A program made the translations under genes and the position numbers. Shown piece by piece: positions 15,286 to 63,955 of a stretch of DNA of 64,000 nucleotides. Numbering within the stretch: position 1 is the stretch's first letter; every line of letters begins with the position of its first letter. This stretch comes from Candidatus Freyarchaeum deiterrae (GTDB lineage Archaea; Asgardarchaeota; Jordiarchaeia; Jordiarchaeales; Jordiarchaeaceae). The stretch lies in the NCBI GenBank assembly GCA_037305845.1, contig CP147778.1, positions 1,600,001 through 1,664,000 on the forward strand, read 5' to 3'. The notes beneath the pieces were generated by a model. The model was not told the origin of the DNA, ran no database searches, and saw only the letters and a program-made list of their open reading frames with translations.

Positions 15286-17946
15286 ATGAGCGTAAAGCCT
15301 TGGTGGCAAGTCGCAGTCCCACATAAGGACATTCGAGAAGGCAGATTGGAAGAAGCTGTCTTCGCAGCTAATCTCGGGGATGTATTCCAAAACAAAGGCC
15401 CTATAGACTACAGAGACCCAGAACTCTTCTTTAAAGGAACATACTTCACCGCTGGACTAACCAATCTAATCGGAGCTGTTCTATCAAAACTCTCAGGCAA
15501 AAGAAAAGGCGACACAGTCGTCCAAATTCAAACACCTTTCGGTGGTGGCAAAACCCACGCGTTACTCGCATTATATCACACTTTCAAATATGGCAACAAA
15601 ATTGCACACATACCAATAGTTAAAAAAATACTGGAAGAAAATAAACTTGAAGGCATACCAGAAACAAAGGTCGTAGTTTTTGTAGGAGAATATGGAGACC
15701 CGCTTAAGGGCAAAACCCTCTGGGGAGAAATAGCCCACCAACTTAAATCTTATAAACTTATGGAGGAATACGACCAAAAGCGTGTAGCCCCTGGAAAAGA
15801 GCTAATAGCTGGCCTCCTCTCGAAAAACCAACCCGTTCTCATACTGATAGACGAACTCCTGCAATACGTTGTAAGAACCATGGGCGTTAAAGTTGAAGAA
15901 GGAACACTGAAAGGTCAGGTCGAAGCTTTTCTCAAGACGCTCACAGAAGCTGTGGCGTCCGCTGATAACTGCGCCATAATCTCTACGCTTCCTTCAAGTG
16001 TCTCTGAAGGCTTTGAAGATGCAGAAAAATCCGAAAGAATCTTGGGAGAACTTCAGAAAATCTTCGGAAGAGTAGAAAAAATCTATGCTCCAGTTGAGGG
16101 CGAAGAAATCTACGAAATAATAAGAAAGAGACTTTTCGAAGAGCTAGGAGATGAAAGCGAACATAGAACAGTCGCAGAAGAATACTTTAATATGTACCAA
16201 AAACTCGGCGAGGACATCCCATCCGAGTACAGAGAAGTGGCTTACAAAGAAAGAATTGTGCGAGCTTACCCTTTTCATCCAGAAACGATAGATATACTCT
16301 TTGAAAGATGGGCAACAATTCCCGGTTTTCAGAGAACTAGAGGGGTGCTGAGACTCTTAGCCGAAGTTGTGGCAGACCTTTTCATGAAAGAACATTCAGC
16401 TCCACTAATCCAGCCAGCCCACTTAAATTTCGAAAATACCTCCATAAGAAGAGAATTCGTTAAACATATTGGAAACGCATTCGAAGGAGTAATTGCTTCA
16501 GATGTTGACGGCCCAGCGGCTAAGGCACCGAAAATAGACAGAGAAATGGGAACAGAATATGCAAGGTTCAAAGTTGCAACAGGCCTAGCAACTTCCGTAT
16601 TTTTCTACTCATTTAGCGGCAGCGAAAGAAAAGGAGTAACTACTCAAAGACTTAGACTAGCGTTTCTCCGTCAAGGCATACCTGCTACAATTGTAACCGA
16701 CGCCTTAAGAAGACTTGAAGACGAACTTTGGTTCCTCCACTTCGAAAAGAACCTTTACTCCTTTAGCAGCACAGTTGGTCTTAACCGAGTCGTGATAGAA
16801 AAGGAAGAAGCAGTAAAAGATGAGGAAGTGGAAGGAGAAATTAGATGGAGAATAGAAAAGATCCAAGGCACAGACTTCACTGTCTACACATGGCCAAAAA
16901 CAAACAGCGATGTCCCAGACAACAAGAAACTCAAACTCATAGTGCTTTCCCCAGAGTTAATGATAAATGACCCAACAACCGAAAATTTCGTTCAAAATAT
17001 AATTAACAAATATTCAACTGGGTTCAGAACATACAAAAACACTTTAATGTTCCTGATAACCGATCCTAACGAGTACGAAGGACTTAAAAGAATCACTCGT
17101 CGCTTTTTAGCTCTCAACGCAATAAAGGAAGACAGTGAAACCATGAAAAGGCTCACCGAAGAGGACAGTAAACGAGTGGAGCAGAAGCTAAAAGATGCCG
17201 ATGCTTCCCTACCAATTAAACTTCTTTCAGCATATCGCTACTTGGCTAAGGCTTCAAGAGACGGAAACCAAACATTCGATCTAGGCATACCAACCATAGG
17301 TGAAAAGCCAAATCTCGCAAAAAGGGCAAAACAATATCTCAAAGACCAAGAAATAATACTAGGCAAAGTTTCCCCAAAATTCCTTTTAGAAAAAACATTT
17401 TCTAAAGAGGACGAACACAAAAGCGTCACAGAAATATGGGAAGCCTTTCTCAAATACCCAGAATTGCCAATACTTGAAGACGAAAAAGTGCTAAAAGACG
17501 CCGTAGTTCAAGGGATTCAAAACGGAACCTTCGGACTGCTGATAGATGACAAAATACAATACGGAGAAGTTATTTCTCTTCTAAAAGTTGCAGAAGAAGC
17601 TCAAATCATAAGAAAGGAAATCGCCCAAAGAATAAAAGGAGAAGAAGAAAATCCCACAATCAGAATAGAAACAAAACCCAAACCAGAGGATCAAGGCATA
17701 AAGGGCGCAAGCAAAAGTGGGGCCGTAAGGAAATTTATACTTAGAGCAAATGTGCCATGGGATAAACTTTCAGAACTAATGCGAGGAGTCTTCACACCCC
17801 TAAGTCACGAGGGAGCCCAAATATCTCTAGAGGTCAAAATAGAAGCGCAGTCTGAACAGGGAATCAGCAAAGATACCTTAAACCTGAAAATAAAAGAAAC
17901 ACTATGCCAAATAGGAGCAATTGTTTTAGAAGAGAAGGAAGAATAA
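15286..17946 (+). CDS. DUF499-family AAA+ ATPase
   Basis: PWWQVAVPH N-terminus, QTPFGGGKTH Walker A, LIDE, YPFHP, FQRTRGVLR. Confidence 0.9.
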   Translation: MSVKPWWQVAVPHKDIREGRLEEAVFAANLGDVFQNKGPIDYRDPELFFKGTYFTAGLTNLIGAVLSKLSGKRKGDTVVQIQTPFGGGKTHALLALYHTFKYGNKIAHIPIVKKILEENKLEGIPETKVVVFVGEYGDPLKGKTLWGEIAHQLKSYKLMEEYDQKRVAPGKELIAGLLSKNQPVLILIDELLQYVVRTMGVKVEEGTLKGQVEAFLKTLTEAVASADNCAIISTLPSSVSEGFEDAEKSERILGELQKIFGRVEKIYAPVEGEEIYEIIRKRLFEELGDESEHRTVAEEYFNMYQKLGEDIPSEYREVAYKERIVRAYPFHPETIDILFERWATIPGFQRTRGVLRLLAEVVADLFMKEHSAPLIQPAHLNFENTSIRREFVKHIGNAFEGVIASDVDGPAAKAPKIDREMGTEYARFKVATGLATSVFFYSFSGSERKGVTTQRLRLAFLRQGIPATIVTDALRRLEDELWFLHFEKNLYSFSSTVGLNRVVIEKEEAVKDEEVEGEIRWRIEKIQGTDFTVYTWPKTNSDVPDNKKLKLIVLSPELMINDPTTENFVQNIINKYSTGFRTYKNTLMFLITDPNEYEGLKRITRRFLALNAIKEDSETMKRLTEEDSKRVEQKLKDADASLPIKLLSAYRYLAKASRDGNQTFDLGIPTIGEKPNLAKRAKQYLKDQEIILGKVSPKFLLEKTFSKEDEHKSVTEIWEAFLKYPELPILEDEKVLKDAVVQGIQNGTFGLLIDDKIQYGEVISLLKVAEEAQIIRKEIAQRIKGEEENPTIRIETKPKPEDQGIKGASKSGAVRKFILRANVPWDKLSELMRGVFTPLSHEGAQISLEVKIEAQSEQGISKDTLNLKIKETLCQIGAIVLEEKEE

Positions 17947-18245: not shown

Positions 18246-18383
18246 TGGCGCACGGAGAGGGATTTGAACCCCCGCATCCCGCAAGGGATACTGGCTCTCA
18301 AGGCCTACGCTTGAAAGAGATACCTCATTCAACCAGCGCCGTTTGGTGGCACATTTCATGTGCTTCCGCTTGGCTATCCGTGC
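18246..18383 (-). tRNA. tRNA-Ser(TGA) with two BHB introns (18344-18363 in D-loop; 18305-18333 at 29/30), CCA encoded
   Basis: Acceptor stem GCACGGA/TCCGTGC. After splicing the anticodon arm is CTGGC-CTTGAGA-GCCAG. Long variable arm, GTTCAAATC T-loop, G73. Confidence 0.9.
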
Positions 18384-19429: not shown

Positions 19430-20305
19430 ATGAAACTTTCAAAAGAGGTACTTAATATTGAGCCAGAATTTGTTGAGAAGCGTGTTCTTAAATTTATTCG
19501 TGCTCGGGTTACTGATGTGGGTGTTTCAGGAGTGGTTATGGGTCTGAGTGGAGGTATTGATTCTTCGGTTGTTGCTGCTCTTTGTGTAAAAGCTTTGGGC
19601 CCGGAAAGAGTATTAGGGCTGATGTTACCCGAGAAGGATAGCGATCCTAACGATATTAAAGATGCTGTAAAAATAGCTAAGCAGCTTGAAAATCCCTATG
19701 AAGTAGTAGATATAACTTCAATAATTAATGCTTGCCGGGAAACCTATTTAAAGGATGCCTCGGATGCTCCTACAGTAGTGGGAAATGTGAAGGCACGTGT
19801 ACGCATGTTAACACTTTATTGCTATGCAAATAAACTGCATCGCTTGGTCGTTGGTACTGGAAATAAAAGTGAAATATTAATCGGATACAGTTAACGGTTG
19901 ATCACCGTAACTGCCGAAAACTTTACCAAGTACGGCGACGGCGGCTCAGATATATTACCAATAGGTGATCTTTATAAAACCCAAGTTCGTCAACTGGCAG
20001 ATTTCCTAGAAATCCCAAAAGAAATAATTAAGAAAACTCCTACTGCGGGACTTTGGAAGGGTCAAACGGACGAAGCCGAAATTGGTGTTTCATACGATGT
20101 TTTGGACCTGATACTTTATGGTTTAGAACATTGGATGAATGAGTCGGAAATAGCGGAAGAACTCAATGTACCACTTGAAAAAGTGAATAAAATAGTAGAA
20201 ATGTGGAGGAAAAGTGAACATAAAAGAAAAGGCCCGGTTGTCTTTAAATTATCACATAGAACTCCAAGTTTAGACTGGAGGATTCCATTTAACTATTATG
20301 TGTAA
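19430..20305 (+). CDS. nadE: NAD+ synthetase, two exons (19430-19886, 19920-20305)
   Basis: GLSGGIDS, NVKARVRM and PTAGLWKGQTDE. Removing the 33-nt insert restores GTGNKSEILIGYFTKYGDGG. Confidence 0.92.
19887..19919 (+). other. 33-nt BHB-type intron in nadE mRNA
   Basis: TCGG-AT^A-[CAGTT a ACGGT tgatc ACCGT AACTG]-CCGA-AA^A. Contains an in-frame TAA. Confidence 0.85.
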
Positions 20306-25967: not shown

Positions 25968-26071
25968 GGGCGGATGGTCTAGAACTCTTCCTATGAGAAG
26001 AGGAGTGGAAAGTTTGGTATGATTCCTGGTTCGGGACCAGGAGGCCGTCGGTTCAAATCCGGCTCCGCCCA
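25968..26071 (+). tRNA. tRNA-Pro(CGG) with a 30-nt intron at 15/16 (25983-26012)
   Basis: Acceptor stem GGGCGGA/TCCGCCC, anticodon arm CTGGT-TCGGG-ACCAG, GTTCAAATC. The intron forms a BHB-like motif. Confidence 0.92.
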
Positions 26072-51331: not shown

Positions 51332-51462
51332 GCCGAGGTAGCTCAGTTGGTAGAGCGTCAGGCTGTTAACTTGATGGTCAAGAGGTCTGTTTAAGATCTC
51401 TCCACAAGCAGGTCCGAGATGATATTGAAGCGTTTCATATCACGGATATCCTGTCCTCGGCG
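51332..51462 (+). tRNA. tRNA-Asn(GTT) with two BHB introns (51380-51407 at 48/49; 51419-51448 at 59/60)
   Basis: Acceptor stem GCCGAGG/CCTCGGC, anticodon arm TCAGG-CTGTTAA-CTTGA. Spliced T-arm GCAGG-TCCGAGT-CCTGT. Confidence 0.9.
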
Positions 51463-59621: not shown

Positions 59622-62069
59622 TTAGTCCTCAATCAACTTCCAGAACTCCACATCATCCATAAAGCTCTTACCCACCCGTATACGCGAAGGCCCCGTAACA
59701 TTTTCCAATAATAACTTGCGTTCGATTTTGTCGACCATGCGACGCGAGAACAAAACTGTATCTGGATTTACACTAATGCTGTTAGCTCCTAATCGAACTA
59801 GAAACTCCAAATAATCAGGGTAAACACTGGGGGCCTGTCCACAGATAGAAGTAGTTACTCCGTATTTTTTACATATCTTAATAGTAAATGCTATTGCACG
59901 TAGAACTGCTAAATTACGCTCATCATATATCTCTTGAACACTAGCATCGTTTCTATCTACACCCAGAATTAACATTGTTAAATCGTTAGTACCAAAGCTA
60001 ACTCCATTGATTCCTTCTTGACAGAATTTGTCTATTAATAGTACACAGCTTGGAACCTCAACCATAATCCAGATTTGGAAGTCTGGGTCTACTCCCGGAT
60101 CTAGTCCTTCTTCTTTCATAATCTGTTTTACTTTCCTGAAAACGTCTACTGATTGCACAAAGGGTAGCATTACCCAGAGATTTCTCAGCCCGAATTCTTC
60201 TCTGACTTTTTTTATTGCTCTACATTCAAGTCGAAAAACATCGGGTTCTTTTATGTATCGGAATTGCCCTCTGTATCCTATCATAGGATTGGGGCCTACA
60301 TGCCCCGTTTCTTCCTCGTATTTCCTTCCACCTTCTAAAGCCAAGAATTCATCGGGTTTAAAGTCTAGAAATCTGTACACCACTGGACCTGGGCTGAAGG
60401 CATCGGCGACTTTTCTTACTCCGTCTGCAAATTGGTCTATCATTTCTTGTTCCCCGCCTTCTTCAATGAGTTTTCTTGGGTGTTTCCCTAATGTTATCAT
60501 CAAGTGCTCTGCTCTGAGTAGTCCAACACCATCCGCCTGTGTCTGTTTTGCAACTCTTTCTGCTATTTCAGGCATCGATAAGTTCACGTAGATTTTAGTA
60601 GCTGTAGATGCTGTCGTTGTGCCTACAGGCGCGGCTACGGTTTCTTCTTCCTTTTCGGCTTTTAGAATTCCTCGATATATCAGTCCTTTTCCACCATCAA
60701 CAGTTATTTGCCTCTCGCTTTGTAGAACATTGGTTGCCTTTTTTGTTCCTACTACACAGGGGATTCCGAGTTCTCGGGATACTATTGCCGCGTGGCATGT
60801 GTACCCTCCTTCGTCAGTTACTATCGCGGCTGCTTTTTTCATTACTGGAACCCAATCAGGTGTAGTCATTCTAGTCACTAAAATGTCTCCTTCCTTCAAT
60901 TCTCCTATGTGATTAATGTCTTTAATGACTCTCACCGGGCCAGCTCCTATTCCTGGGGATACGCCTAGTCCCTTAAGTATCATCTCTCGTTCCGTAGTAG
61001 TTTCTGGTTGGTTGGTTTTGGTATTTTTTTTTGCGGGTCCTGTGCTTGAACCATGTACTGTTTCCGGCCTAGATTGAAGTAAGTATATTTCTCCCTTTTG
61101 ATCTACTGCCCACTCGATGTCTTGAGCTGTTTTATAATGTTTTTCGATTTGTTTGCCATACTGGGCTATTCTCTTTATTTCTTCATCTGTTAAGGCTGGG
61201 ATATTTTGTCTTTCCGGAGGGATTTCTAAATGTTCAGTCTTTTCTGTACTAGGGTTTAATGCGTACTCGAGCTTTTTGGTTACAATGTGTTTTTCGACTA
61301 TTTCTAGATTAGATTTGTTCACTACATACGTGTCTGGTGTTACTGCCCCACTTACTACCGCTTCTCCCAGCCCCCAATTAGCTTCTATCATTATTTTTGT
61401 ATTATCCCCCGTTGCTGGGTGAAGTGTAAACATAACTCCCGCTGATTTTGGCTCAACCATAAGTTGAACAGCCACGCTAATGAGGACGTCTTGATGTCTG
61501 AATCCCTTTTCTTCTCTGTAAGTTATGGCTCTTTTTGTAAATAGGCTACTCCAACATTTTTCTACGGCTTCCAGCAACCCTTCTCTATTTTCGTTTAGAA
61601 AGGTCTCCTGCTGTCCTGCAAAAGAAGCGCCTGGCAATAGGGGAAGAATGGTTTAACCCATTACTTTATCCTCTGCGGAGGCGCTCGATCTGACCGCTAC
61701 TAATGGCTCTTTCTCTTTTACTCTCTTAGCTAGTTCGTCATAACTTTTCATTATTGCTTCTTGAATCTCTTCAGGGATTGGTGTAGATTCAATAAGTTGC
61801 CTGATTTTGTTTGATGCTTCTTCAAGTTGTTGGAAGTCTTTAGTGTCGGCTTTTTCAAGTATTTTGAATACTTTATTTTTTATATTTGTGTCTTCTAGGA
61901 ATTTCTTGTAGGCATAGGTAGTAATTGAAAAACCTGGTGGAACTGGGACTTTGGCTTTTGTTATTAGTTCACCCAAATTAGCGTTTTTTCCTCCTACCTT
62001 GGACACGTCTTCCTTTCCTACCTCTTCAAACCATAAGATTAAATCATTTTCATCGCGGCTCATATTCAC
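59622..62069 (-). CDS. ppsA: Phosphoenolpyruvate synthase, two exons (62069-61668, 61637-59622)
   Basis: VGGKNANLGE, GGYTCHAAIVSRE and SFGTNDL. Removing the 30-nt insert restores VRSSASAEDLPGASFAGQ. Confidence 0.93.
61638..61667 (-). other. 30-nt BHB-type intron in ppsA mRNA
   Basis: GCA-GAGG-AT^A-[AAG t AATGG gttaaa CCATT CTT]-CCCC-TA^T-TGC. Contains an in-frame TAA. Confidence 0.83.
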
Positions 62070-62227
62070 ACCCTTAGCTTTAAGTGTACTATGTCAATTG
62101 ATACAACTTTTTTATTAATGTTTTGTACCTAGGCGATATGAAATGGTTTTTCCAAATTGCTTAATAACTTATATTACTATAAAATAGAATATTAAAAAAT
62201 ATCAAATCATGTTTTCTTTATCTATTT

Positions 62228-62668
62228 TTACCCTTCTTTAATCTGAAAAATGTTTAATACTGTTTTTTTATAATTTATGATTCTGTGTTTTGGATGATTA
62301 ACACAAACGGTCTCATTTGTTAGTAATCTGAGTATTAGGTCTGATTTTACGGTGTTTGCTATTCTCAAAAGATAATATTGCAATTCGGGCGGTGGGCGAA
62401 TAGAATAGATAAGGTCACTATTCTTGTATATTCTCATATTCGGTGAGGTTACGTCATCAATGACGGATTTAATATGGTGGCAATTTGATAGTTGTACTAG
62501 AATATTAGGAATTACGTCTGTAACTATGATTTCTGCATCTGGTAGTTTCTCCTTAAGTGCAATAGCTATTTCAGGGAGCCTTCCTACTCCTACTTCAACA
62601 ATTTTTCTAGAGTTACTGTAATTACTCACAATGTACTCAATTATGTTTTCAGTATCTATTAGCTTCAT
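62228..62668 (-). CDS. UPF0146 family protein
   Basis: KIVEVGVG, DDVTSP...Y and LIYSIRPPPEL. Confidence 0.88.
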   Translation of the reverse strand: MKLIDTENIIEYIVSNYSNSRKIVEVGVGRLPEIAIALKEKLPDAEIIVTDVIPNILVQLSNCHHIKSVIDDVTSPNMRIYKNSDLIYSIRPPPELQYYLLRIANTVKSDLILRLLTNETVCVNHPKHRIINYKKTVLNIFQIKEG

Positions 62669-62716
62669 TTTCTCAACATTGGGTATTTTTTTACAGAGAT
62701 GAGTTCTAAAACTTTT

Positions 62717-63955
62717 TCAAATTGGAGGTTTAGACATAGGTATCTTGAGTGTATCCTCTATTCTGATAAGCTCATTGATCTTAGCCATGCGTTCCCCTCC
62801 CATTATCCCTATTTTAATTATTGGACAGTTTAGCCCAACGGCAATATGTGCTAAGGCTGGATCTGTTGTTTCTCCTGATCTGTGGGATGCAGCTGGGATT
62901 ACTTTGCTTTTATGACATAGCTCAACAGTGGATTTGGTGTCTGTTAGGGTGCCTACCTGATTAGGTTTTATTATGGACCCAGTTATCGAATTTTTTTCTA
63001 TTGCTGTTTGAAGACGTTTTTTATTGGTTACTATGAGATCATCCCCTGTTATTATACATTTATTTTTAGTATTTGCGGTTAACTTCGCGAAATACTCAAA
63101 GTCCTCTTCTCGAAATGGATCTTCAAAGAATGTAATTTCATAGTTGTGTATAAGTTCTAGTACATACTCCAGTTGTTGTTCTGAGGTTAATCTTTTGTTT
63201 TCTTTTTTGTAAACATATTCCTCTTTTCCACTATCCCATAATTCTGATGCTGCTGCATCTATCCCTATTTTTGCTCTTACTCCGGTCTCTTCTTCCACTT
63301 TTTCTATTGCTTTGGTTAGTATTTCTAAGGCTTCGTTTATTGTTAGTGGAGCTGCCCATGCTCCTTCGTCATTTCTTCCGAGTACATAGTTTGGATATGT
63401 TTTTGTAATTATTTCAGCTACTGCTCGGTGAACCATTACATTGGTTTCCGCTGCCACTTCAAATGTTTTGGCCCCTAATGGTAGAACCAAAAACTCTTGA
63501 AAGTCTATAGCGTCACCTTTTGTGTGAACTCCGCCTCCGATAACATTACTCAGAGGGAAGGGAAGTTTTAGGTTACTGCCTAAATATTGACAAAGCATTA
63601 GATTTTTGTTTTTAGATGCGGCTTTGGCTACAGCAATAGAAGTGGCTATTGCTGCATTTCCGCCAATTTTACTCAGATTTTTTGTGTCATCAACTTTCCA
63701 TATAATTTTGTCAATTTCTGCTTGATTTTCTGTGTTCATTCCTTTTATTTTAGTGGACAACTCATTTTCTATAAGTTTTATTGAACTTTCCACTCCTCCT
63801 TCAGGAAAGGCTTGAGCTTCGAATTTTCCAACACTAGCTCCTGATGGAGCGCAGGCAGCTATTTTAAAACTTTTAGTGTGGATTACAACTTCTATTGTGT
63901 ATTTACCTCGAGAATCAAGAATTTTACGCGCAGAAATCCCTTCTATTGAAGACAA
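62717..63955 (-). CDS. eno: Enolase
   Basis: ILDSRG, PSGAS, EDPF, GDDL, KPNQ and SHRSGET. Confidence 0.95.
   Translation of the reverse strand: MSSIEGISARKILDSRGKYTIEVVIHTKSFKIAACAPSGASVGKFEAQAFPEGGVESSIKLIENELSTKIKGMNTENQAEIDKIIWKVDDTKNLSKIGGNAAIATSIAVAKAASKNKNLMLCQYLGSNLKLPFPLSNVIGGGVHTKGDAIDFQEFLVLPLGAKTFEVAAETNVMVHRAVAEIITKTYPNYVLGRNDEGAWAAPLTINEALEILTKAIEKVEEETGVRAKIGIDAAASELWDSGKEEYVYKKENKRLTSEQQLEYVLELIHNYEITFFEDPFREEDFEYFAKLTANTKNKCIITGDDLIVTNKKRLQTAIEKNSITGSIIKPNQVGTLTDTKSTVELCHKSKVIPAASHRSGETTDPALAHIAVGLNCPIIKIGIMGGERMAKINELIRIEDTLKIPMSKPPI

What the first reader, a model, noticed from the sequence alone, without database searches (positions are those of the whole stretch)
61634..61677. 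Second BHB mRNA intron, in PEP synthase (ppsA)
Seen: a 30-nt insert containing TAA splits the conserved AED|LPGASFAGQ motif. The fold on the minus strand is outer helix GCA/TGC, central helix GAGG/CCCC (one A-C mismatch, like several tRNA introns here), bulges ATA and TAT, and inner stem AAG.AATGG/CCATT.CTT. Canonical cuts remove 61638-61667 and join GAG GAT|TTG CCA. Both halves are otherwise undamaged, which argues against a pseudogene.
Basis: partly seen in the sequence, partly recalled or inferred. Interest (0 to 1): 0.92.

Follow-up and report, generated by a model that had tools for sequence, protein, structure and literature searches.

The report
tRNA-type intron splitting Asgard PEP synthase
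The only PEP-synthase gene found in this Asgard archaeon is interrupted by a 30-base hairpin shaped like the introns cut out of archaeal tRNAs, kept at the same spot across its whole class, so a central metabolic enzyme very probably has to be made from a spliced messenger RNA, something so far shown for only one archaeal coding gene.

Summary
Confirmed. A 30-nt insert (61638-61667, minus strand, in-frame TAA) splits the AED|LPGASFAG motif of ppsA in Ca. Freyarchaeum deiterrae. Cutting by the bulge-helix-bulge (BHB) rule gives an unbroken 804-aa protein. Five independent sequencing runs carry the insert. All 9 genomes of the class in which the gene was found are interrupted at this codon boundary; the readable inserts are 18, 19, 20, 28, 29 or 30 nt, every one breaks translation, and every one keeps BHB geometry. 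Other Asgard classes lack it. Both exons are under purifying selection (dN/dS 0.08-0.19). The A-C mismatch is real and derived; tRNA introns here show such mismatches, and the genome's EndA carries the broad-specificity loop. It is not alone: 15 of 16 homology-defined inserts in this genome are BHB-shaped (0.17 expected), including cbf5 at its known site. No spliced RNA or protein was found, so splicing is inferred. The papers I could search report only cbf5 and one Haloferax 5' UTR. This scan has already noted the same kind of intron in other genes of this genome and other Asgard genomes; ppsA is a further case.

The parts
61668..62063 (-). ppsA exon 1, 132 codons from ATG 62063 (GTG 62069 possible), ending RSSASAED; N-terminal part of the nucleotide-binding domain
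   Evidence: TIGR01418 positions 1-125, E 6e-41; dN/dS 0.13-0.19 against same-genus genomes
61638..61667 (-). 30-nt BHB intron with in-frame TAA at 61655-61653
   Evidence: best homology-defined excision; identical in five Logan assemblies and in an 89.5%-identical relative
59622..61637 (-). ppsA exon 2, 671 codons from LPGASFAGQ: rest of the nucleotide-binding domain, phospho-His domain (TCHAAI) and PEP-binding domain
   Evidence: TIGR01418 positions 126-784, E 1e-235; motifs intact; dN/dS 0.08-0.09
61670..61673 (-). 5' strand of the central 4-bp helix, GAGG (exon 1)
   Evidence: invariant in all intron-bearing relatives; mostly GAAG in intron-less outgroups
61667..61669 (-). 5' bulge AT|A; predicted cut between 61668 and 61667
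   Evidence: BHB rule, agrees with the homology boundary
61644..61666 (-). inner hairpin of the intron (8 bp, one bulged U, 6-nt loop holding the stop)
   Evidence: 95% of cells paired, two pairs with two-sided change
61640..61643 (-). 3' strand of the central helix, CCCC (CCTC in all but one relative); 61642 opposes A 61672
61637..61639 (-). 3' bulge TA|T; predicted cut between 61638 and 61637
   Evidence: BHB rule, agrees with the homology boundary
61629..61682 (-). outer exon-exon helix: GCA 61676-61674 with TGC 61636-61634, extended by GCCT 61682-61679 with AGGC 61632-61629
   Evidence: pair probability about 0.99; synonymous positions frozen; 98% of cells paired
19887..19919 (+). second mRNA intron of the same kind in this window, 33 nt with in-frame TAA, in the NAD synthetase gene nadE
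   Evidence: same intron with a compensatory change in G002; intron-less G003-G005 read exactly the predicted spliced sequence

Best explanation
The insert is a bulge-helix-bulge intron in the ppsA messenger RNA. The transcript folds across the junction into outer helix, 4-bp central helix, two 3-nt bulges and inner hairpin. The tRNA-splicing endonuclease EndA (alpha-beta type with the broad-specificity loop) cuts after the second base of each bulge, and RtcB joins the exons, giving full-length PEP synthase. The intron was gained once in the ancestor of Freyarchaeia/Jordarchaeia and is one of at least 15 such introns in this genome. Shown here: the insert, the cut sites by homology, conservation, selection on both exons, presence of the enzyme genes. 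Inferred: folding in vivo, cleavage, ligation, translation of the joined RNA, and tolerance of the A-C mismatch.
For: Homology places the excision exactly at the BHB cuts. Same-site inserts of 18, 19, 20, 28, 29 and 30 nt, all breaking translation, all with 4-bp helix and two 3-nt bulges. Structure count 96.6% paired against 38-54% for slid partners. Exon codons forming the helices are frozen: only 27 of 442 invariant-residue columns have an invariant codon, and 4 lie within 5 codons of the junction. dN/dS 0.08-0.19. No other full-length match to this protein in the genome. About 290 homologues with the motif show no insertion there. EndA alpha with Tyr149/His157/Lys188 and loop Lys66 (A. pernix K44), a beta subunit, and RtcB are encoded (PMC5829648). 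15 of 16 homology-defined inserts are BHB-shaped, 0.17 expected. cbf5 is cut inside the catalytic Asp codon, as in the crenarchaeal case with proven splicing (PMC2738675).
Against: No spliced sequence found: the metagenome scan gave only unspliced copies and three protein searches gave no junction-spanning protein above 65% identity; these searches are weak for RNA. In this lineage the central helix has an A-C mismatch and the energy model prefers another register. Exon 2 begins with TTG, a possible start codon. The genomes compared are kin, not independent samples.
Confidence: 0.92

Rival explanations
1. Split enzyme: exon 1 ends at the stop, exon 2 starts at its TTG, and the two chains assemble into PEP synthase; the hairpin is only a spacer.
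For: Exon 2 begins with TTG here and in most relatives, and gene callers predict two proteins of 136 and 671 aa.
Against: The break is in the middle of one Pfam domain (PPDK_N on both halves) inside an insertion-free motif. Read-through tails vary from 0 to 23 unrelated residues. G009 has CTG. The DNA before the TTG is pyrimidine-rich with poor anti-SD pairing (-3.6 against -8.4 kcal/mol at the true start). YTG is explained by the outer helix. It does not explain the BHB geometry at 14 other inserts.
Confidence: 0.03
2. Ribosomal recoding (readthrough, frameshifting or bypass) steps over the insert without splicing.
For: A stable hairpin with a stop codon is a feature of known bypass and readthrough sites (own knowledge).
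Against: Orthologous inserts need frame 0 with a stop, +1 or +2; readthrough would put 6-10 residues into a motif that takes none; no matching take-off and landing codon (GAT against CTA).
Confidence: 0.02
3. Pseudogene or assembly error.
For: In-frame stop; no spliced product on record.
Against: Same insert in five Logan runs and a JGI contig of a related lineage; class-wide conservation; dN/dS 0.08-0.19; no other damage in 804 codons; the source paper's table lists the gene.
Confidence: 0.01
4. It is an intron, but removed by another route (excision from DNA, or a nuclease other than EndA), or spliced so poorly in this lineage that little enzyme is made.
For: A-C mismatch and low predicted population of the BHB fold.
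Against: All DNA assemblies hold the insert; no target duplication and no second copy in the genome (nearest 6 mismatches); geometry equals that of the tRNA introns, 16 of 58 of which have mismatches.
Confidence: 0.02

Closest known systems
cbf5 pre-mRNA intron of Crenarchaeota (Desulfurococcales, Sulfolobales; PMC2738675)
   Same: Short ORF-less insert in a conserved motif of a coding gene, BHB-type boundaries, cuts between second and third bulge bases, alpha-beta EndA; variable length and sequence at a fixed site.
   Different: Gene is a central metabolic enzyme, host is an Asgard archaeon, it falls between codons, and it is one of at least 15 in a genome rather than a lone case. Splicing is demonstrated for cbf5 and not here.
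Archaeal tRNA introns at non-canonical positions (Freyarchaeia tRNAs, PMC11291895)
   Same: Same geometry, same size range (tRNA introns mostly 19-32 nt), same tolerance of central mismatches, same enzymes available.
   Different: Sits in an mRNA and blocks translation until removed. The source paper reports tRNA introns only.
Haloferax HVO_1309 5' UTR BHB intron (PMC7714728)
   Same: EndA substrate in an mRNA, shown in vitro.
   Different: Lies in the untranslated leader and does not interrupt a reading frame.
HAC1/XBP1 non-conventional mRNA splicing in eukaryotes (own knowledge)
   Same: A short mRNA intron cut by a protein nuclease and joined by the tRNA ligase (RtcB in animals).
   Different: Cut by IRE1 at two stem-loops, not by the tRNA endonuclease at a BHB; regulated by stress. 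No regulation is shown here.

Membership tests
Archaeal BHB (EndA/RtcB) intron | 4-bp central helix flanked by two 3-nt bulges on opposite strands | tested here: met
   3 of 4 pairs plus A-C here; 4 of 4 Watson-Crick in all other readable variants except L117, which shares the A-C
Archaeal BHB (EndA/RtcB) intron | Helices on both sides of the motif (outer exon-exon, inner intron) | tested here: met
   outer 3+4 bp, inner 8 bp
Archaeal BHB (EndA/RtcB) intron | Cuts after the second base of each bulge restore the functional sequence | tested here: met
   804-aa ORF; profile positions 125 and 126 abut; holds for six different lengths
Archaeal BHB (EndA/RtcB) intron | Host encodes EndA with catalytic Tyr-His-Lys and a ligase | tested here: met
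   EndA alpha and beta, loop lysine present; RtcB present but itself interrupted by a BHB-shaped insert
Archaeal BHB (EndA/RtcB) intron | The BHB fold is adopted by the RNA | tested here: inconclusive
   energy model prefers a slipped register, but does the same for half of the tRNA introns tested
Archaeal BHB (EndA/RtcB) intron | Spliced RNA exists and depends on EndA | not testable with these tools
   no spliced record found; raw RNA reads and assays not available
Phosphoenolpyruvate synthase (TIGR01418) | Full-length match with nucleotide-binding, phospho-His and PEP-binding domains | tested here: met
   exons cover profile 1-125 and 126-784; exon 2 alone passes the cut-off; motifs intact
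Group I/II intron, homing-endonuclease intron or intein | Ribozyme core or encoded protein | tested here: not met
   18-30 nt, contains a stop or shifts frame; Rfam finds only tRNAs in the window
Miniature transposable element | Multiple copies, terminal repeats, target-site duplication | tested here: not met
   single copy, no duplication at the junction

The most novel reading that the evidence does not exclude
Asgard archaea run routine, protein-catalysed mRNA splicing: dozens of tRNA-type introns in the most conserved motifs of essential genes (ppsA, nadE, gatE, tyrS, alba, rpS26e, rtcB, actin in an Odinarchaeon), still being gained or lost within genera. EndA/RtcB capacity would then gate central metabolism and translation, possibly as a control point, and the archaeal relatives of eukaryotes would already process mRNA before translation.
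Probability: 0.8. Interest if true: 0.9.

Novelty: new variant of a known kind. Interest (0 to 1): 0.83.

Why it matters
Archaeal coding genes are treated as intron-free apart from cbf5. A class-wide intron in a gluconeogenic enzyme, as one of at least 15 in a genome, means mRNA splicing by the tRNA machinery is probably ordinary in the closest prokaryotic relatives of eukaryotes. It bears on how introns arise (gain at exon hairpins with a 7-nt loop), on coupling of transcription and translation, and on annotation: these genes are called as two fragments, so protein sets and metabolic reconstructions of Asgard archaea hold truncated products. It is directly testable with existing metatranscriptome reads of this organism.

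Tried and rejected
Structure-only scans: the relaxed BHB pattern matches about 183,000 times per strand, and an ab initio ORF-joining scan gave 509 sites against 465-486 for displaced-cut decoys; it cannot count introns and was not used as evidence. Search for a spliced form: DNA pattern allowing 0-30 inserted bases in metagenome and genome contigs found only unspliced copies; three protein searches found no close junction-spanning protein. G011 was fetched as an intron-free control and turned out to carry such inserts itself, so it is not a negative control and introns shared by both genomes could be missed. tRNA intron recovery by ARAGORN and by homology was poor; published coordinates were used instead. 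The first refinement script scored excisions unevenly and was redone. The alignment-score cut-off of 150 uses homology only but was set after I had seen. In G010 the insert bases are withheld; only its presence and length by coordinates (about 19 nt) were noted. In-frame inserts without a stop: none new among 303 gap sites. Literature searches for Asgard mRNA introns found none; the library lacks most subscription papers.

Full report
Identity. The window lies at 1,600,001-1,664,000 of a single-contig genome of 3,576,204 bp. Its tRNA coordinates match the published table for the complete genome of Ca. Freyarchaeum deiterrae, an Asgard archaeon (PMC11291895). That paper reports introns in 92-95% of tRNA genes, lists a pps gene for this organism, and mentions no mRNA introns in the passages found.

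Observation. On the minus strand the ppsA frame runs RSSASAED, then 30 extra bases (61667-61638) that read KVMG-stop, then LPGASFAGQ. Removing them gives 804 codons without a stop. The two halves match TIGR01418 at positions 1-125 and 126-784 with no gap or overlap. The junction can be drawn as outer helix GCA/TGC, central helix GAGG/CCCC with one A-C, bulges ATA and TAT, and an 8-bp inner hairpin; cutting after the second base of each bulge removes exactly the 30 bases. Aligning an intron-less orthologue picks the same excision with no structural input.

Not an artefact. Logan assemblies of five sequencing runs carry the identical insert. A JGI contig that is only 89.5% identical to this region has the same 30 bases, A-C included, although third codon positions differ at 14% (chance of 30 neutral bases staying identical about 0.01).

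Conservation. Of 11 genomes of the class, 9 gave a match to the gene, and all 9 are interrupted at this codon boundary; the two without a match are fragmented assemblies. Readable inserts are 30 nt (this genome), 29 nt (four same-genus genomes), 28 nt (a metagenome contig), and 20, 19 and 18 nt (second family); in G010 the bases are withheld. Each shifts the frame or holds an in-frame stop. All but the two 30-nt copies have a perfect GAGG/CCTC helix, all have two 3-nt bulges, and the inner hairpin differs in length and sequence. Across 7 distinct rows 96.6% of cells pair, against 38-54% with slid partners; two inner pairs change on both sides (kin, and an alignment of unequal lengths, so indicative only). 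Eight ppsA genes of other Asgard families have no insert, and a tree separates them from the intron-bearing genes (support 0.99), which fits one gain at the base of the class.

Selection. Against same-genus genomes dN/dS is 0.13-0.19 for exon 1 and 0.08-0.09 for exon 2. Among six divergent intron-bearing genes, 27 of 442 invariant-residue columns keep one codon; four of them (Ser -5, Ala -2, Glu -1, Gly +3) are at the junction and three of these form the helices. About 290 homologous proteins have three residues between AED and AS(F/Y)AG and no insertion. No second full-length match exists in the genome.

Machinery. The genome encodes two EndA subunits. One aligns best to the A. pernix alpha subunit, with Tyr149, His157, Lys188 and the loop lysine Lys66 equivalent to K44, which PMC5829648 ties to cleavage of relaxed motifs and reports for Asgard enzymes. 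The other lacks the catalytic His and is taken as beta. RtcB is present. Of 58 published tRNA introns, 42 have four central pairs, 12 three and 4 two; 8 contain an A-C or C-A. The ppsA mismatch is thus within what this cell must already splice.

Not a lone case. Proteins of an Odinarchaeia genome were aligned to this genome and every stop or frame break was refined by homology alone. Of 16 well-aligned breaks needing removal of 10 nt or more, 15 fit BHB geometry (13 under the strict rule); 0.17 and 0.12 were expected from same-length placements nearby. They interrupt conserved motifs of cbf5, rtcB, gatE, tyrS, nadE, alba, rpS26e, pcm, ahcY (twice), a leuC-type gene, an HD hydrolase, an endonuclease Q-like gene, a small Cys-rich protein and ppsA; 13 are 29-33 nt. 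The cbf5 cut falls between the first and second base of the catalytic Asp codon, the site of the crenarchaeal intron whose splicing is proven (PMC2738675). For nadE, three same-genus genomes lack the insert and read exactly the predicted spliced sequence. The reverse comparison found four such inserts in the Odinarchaeia genome, one in actin, absent from three relatives. The count of 15 is a lower bound, limited to genes shared by the two genomes.

Against. No spliced ppsA sequence was found. The energy model gives the central helix a probability near 0.01 here, but also 0 for four of eight tRNA introns tested, so it does not discriminate. Exon 2 starts with TTG; the split-protein reading is weakened by the mid-domain break, variable read-through tails, a CTG in one genome and the lack of a ribosome-binding site. 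Recoding would need three different frame events at one orthologous site.

Mechanism. Most likely (0.92) EndA cuts the folded transcript at the two bulges and RtcB joins the exons. Steps shown: sequence, boundaries, conservation, selection, enzyme genes. Steps inferred: folding, cleavage, ligation. Origin is more speculative: the joined exons form a stem with a 7-nt loop, like an anticodon arm, and one intron-less Baldrarchaeia-type outgroup (L010) already has these exon bases, which would suit insertion at a pre-existing hairpin. Whether the intron regulates PEP synthase is untested; persistence may only reflect that exact loss is rare.

Known and new. The mechanism is that of the cbf5 intron. 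As of 2020 cbf5 and one Haloferax 5' UTR were the reported mRNA cases (PMC7714728); the 2009 paper notes unconfirmed predictions in other genes. My searches found no paper on Asgard mRNA introns. Earlier notes of this scan describe the same kind of intron in other genes of this genome and in Loki-, Odin- and Jordarchaeia genomes; I found most of the same-genome sites independently before reading them, and I did not check their claims of spliced RNA contigs. Verdict: real, very probably a spliced mRNA intron; new variant of a known kind; interest 0.83.

Noticed in passing
window 19887-19919 (+): 33-nt BHB intron with in-frame TAA in nadE; shared with G002 (one compensatory pair change), absent from G003-G005 and the second family, so gained or lost within the genus.
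   Followed up: yes
G000:C1:1452796-1452824 (-): The RNA ligase gene rtcB has a 29-nt relaxed BHB insert right after the conserved Asp of its PD.HQGYG motif, so the ligase may be needed for its own synthesis.
   Followed up: partly
G000:C1:1483415-1483446 (-): cbf5 has a perfect 32-nt BHB intron at the same codon position as the crenarchaeal cbf5 intron.
   Followed up: partly
G000:C1:1876203-1877066 (-): ahcY has two clear BHB inserts (29 and 56 nt) and a third, longer break near 1876294 that my script did not resolve; a RuBisCO-like gene near 2174614 has a similar unresolved break.
   Followed up: partly
L060 about 15680-15715 (G011:C1 about 535690, +): Actin of an Odinarchaeia genome has a perfect 34-nt BHB insert at PPERMYS|VWIGG, absent from three relatives; gatA-like, citG-like and glycine-cleavage P genes of G011 have similar inserts.
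   Followed up: partly
G000:C1:1589354-1589381 (-): Strong 28-nt BHB candidate from the ab initio scan (two AAA/AAT bulges, 9-bp inner stem) joining 35 and 363 codons; not checked by homology.
   Followed up: no
L140:1454-1457: One Logan assembly (SRR29366191) has a 1-nt deletion plus a substitution 15 nt upstream of the intron that shifts the frame of exon 1; assembly error or a rare variant.
   Followed up: no
G000:C1 about 634507 (-) and 2485084 (-): Two genes with 1-2 nt frameshifts and no insert (a transporter, a radical SAM protein); a different kind of break from the introns.
   Followed up: no
window 18246-18383, 25968-26071, 51332-51462: tRNA-Ser, tRNA-Pro and tRNA-Asn with five introns at non-canonical positions; ARAGORN miscalls or misses them.
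   Followed up: partly
window 59622-63955 (-): ppsA lies downstream of enolase and a UPF0146 gene on the same strand, a possible gluconeogenic cluster.
   Followed up: no
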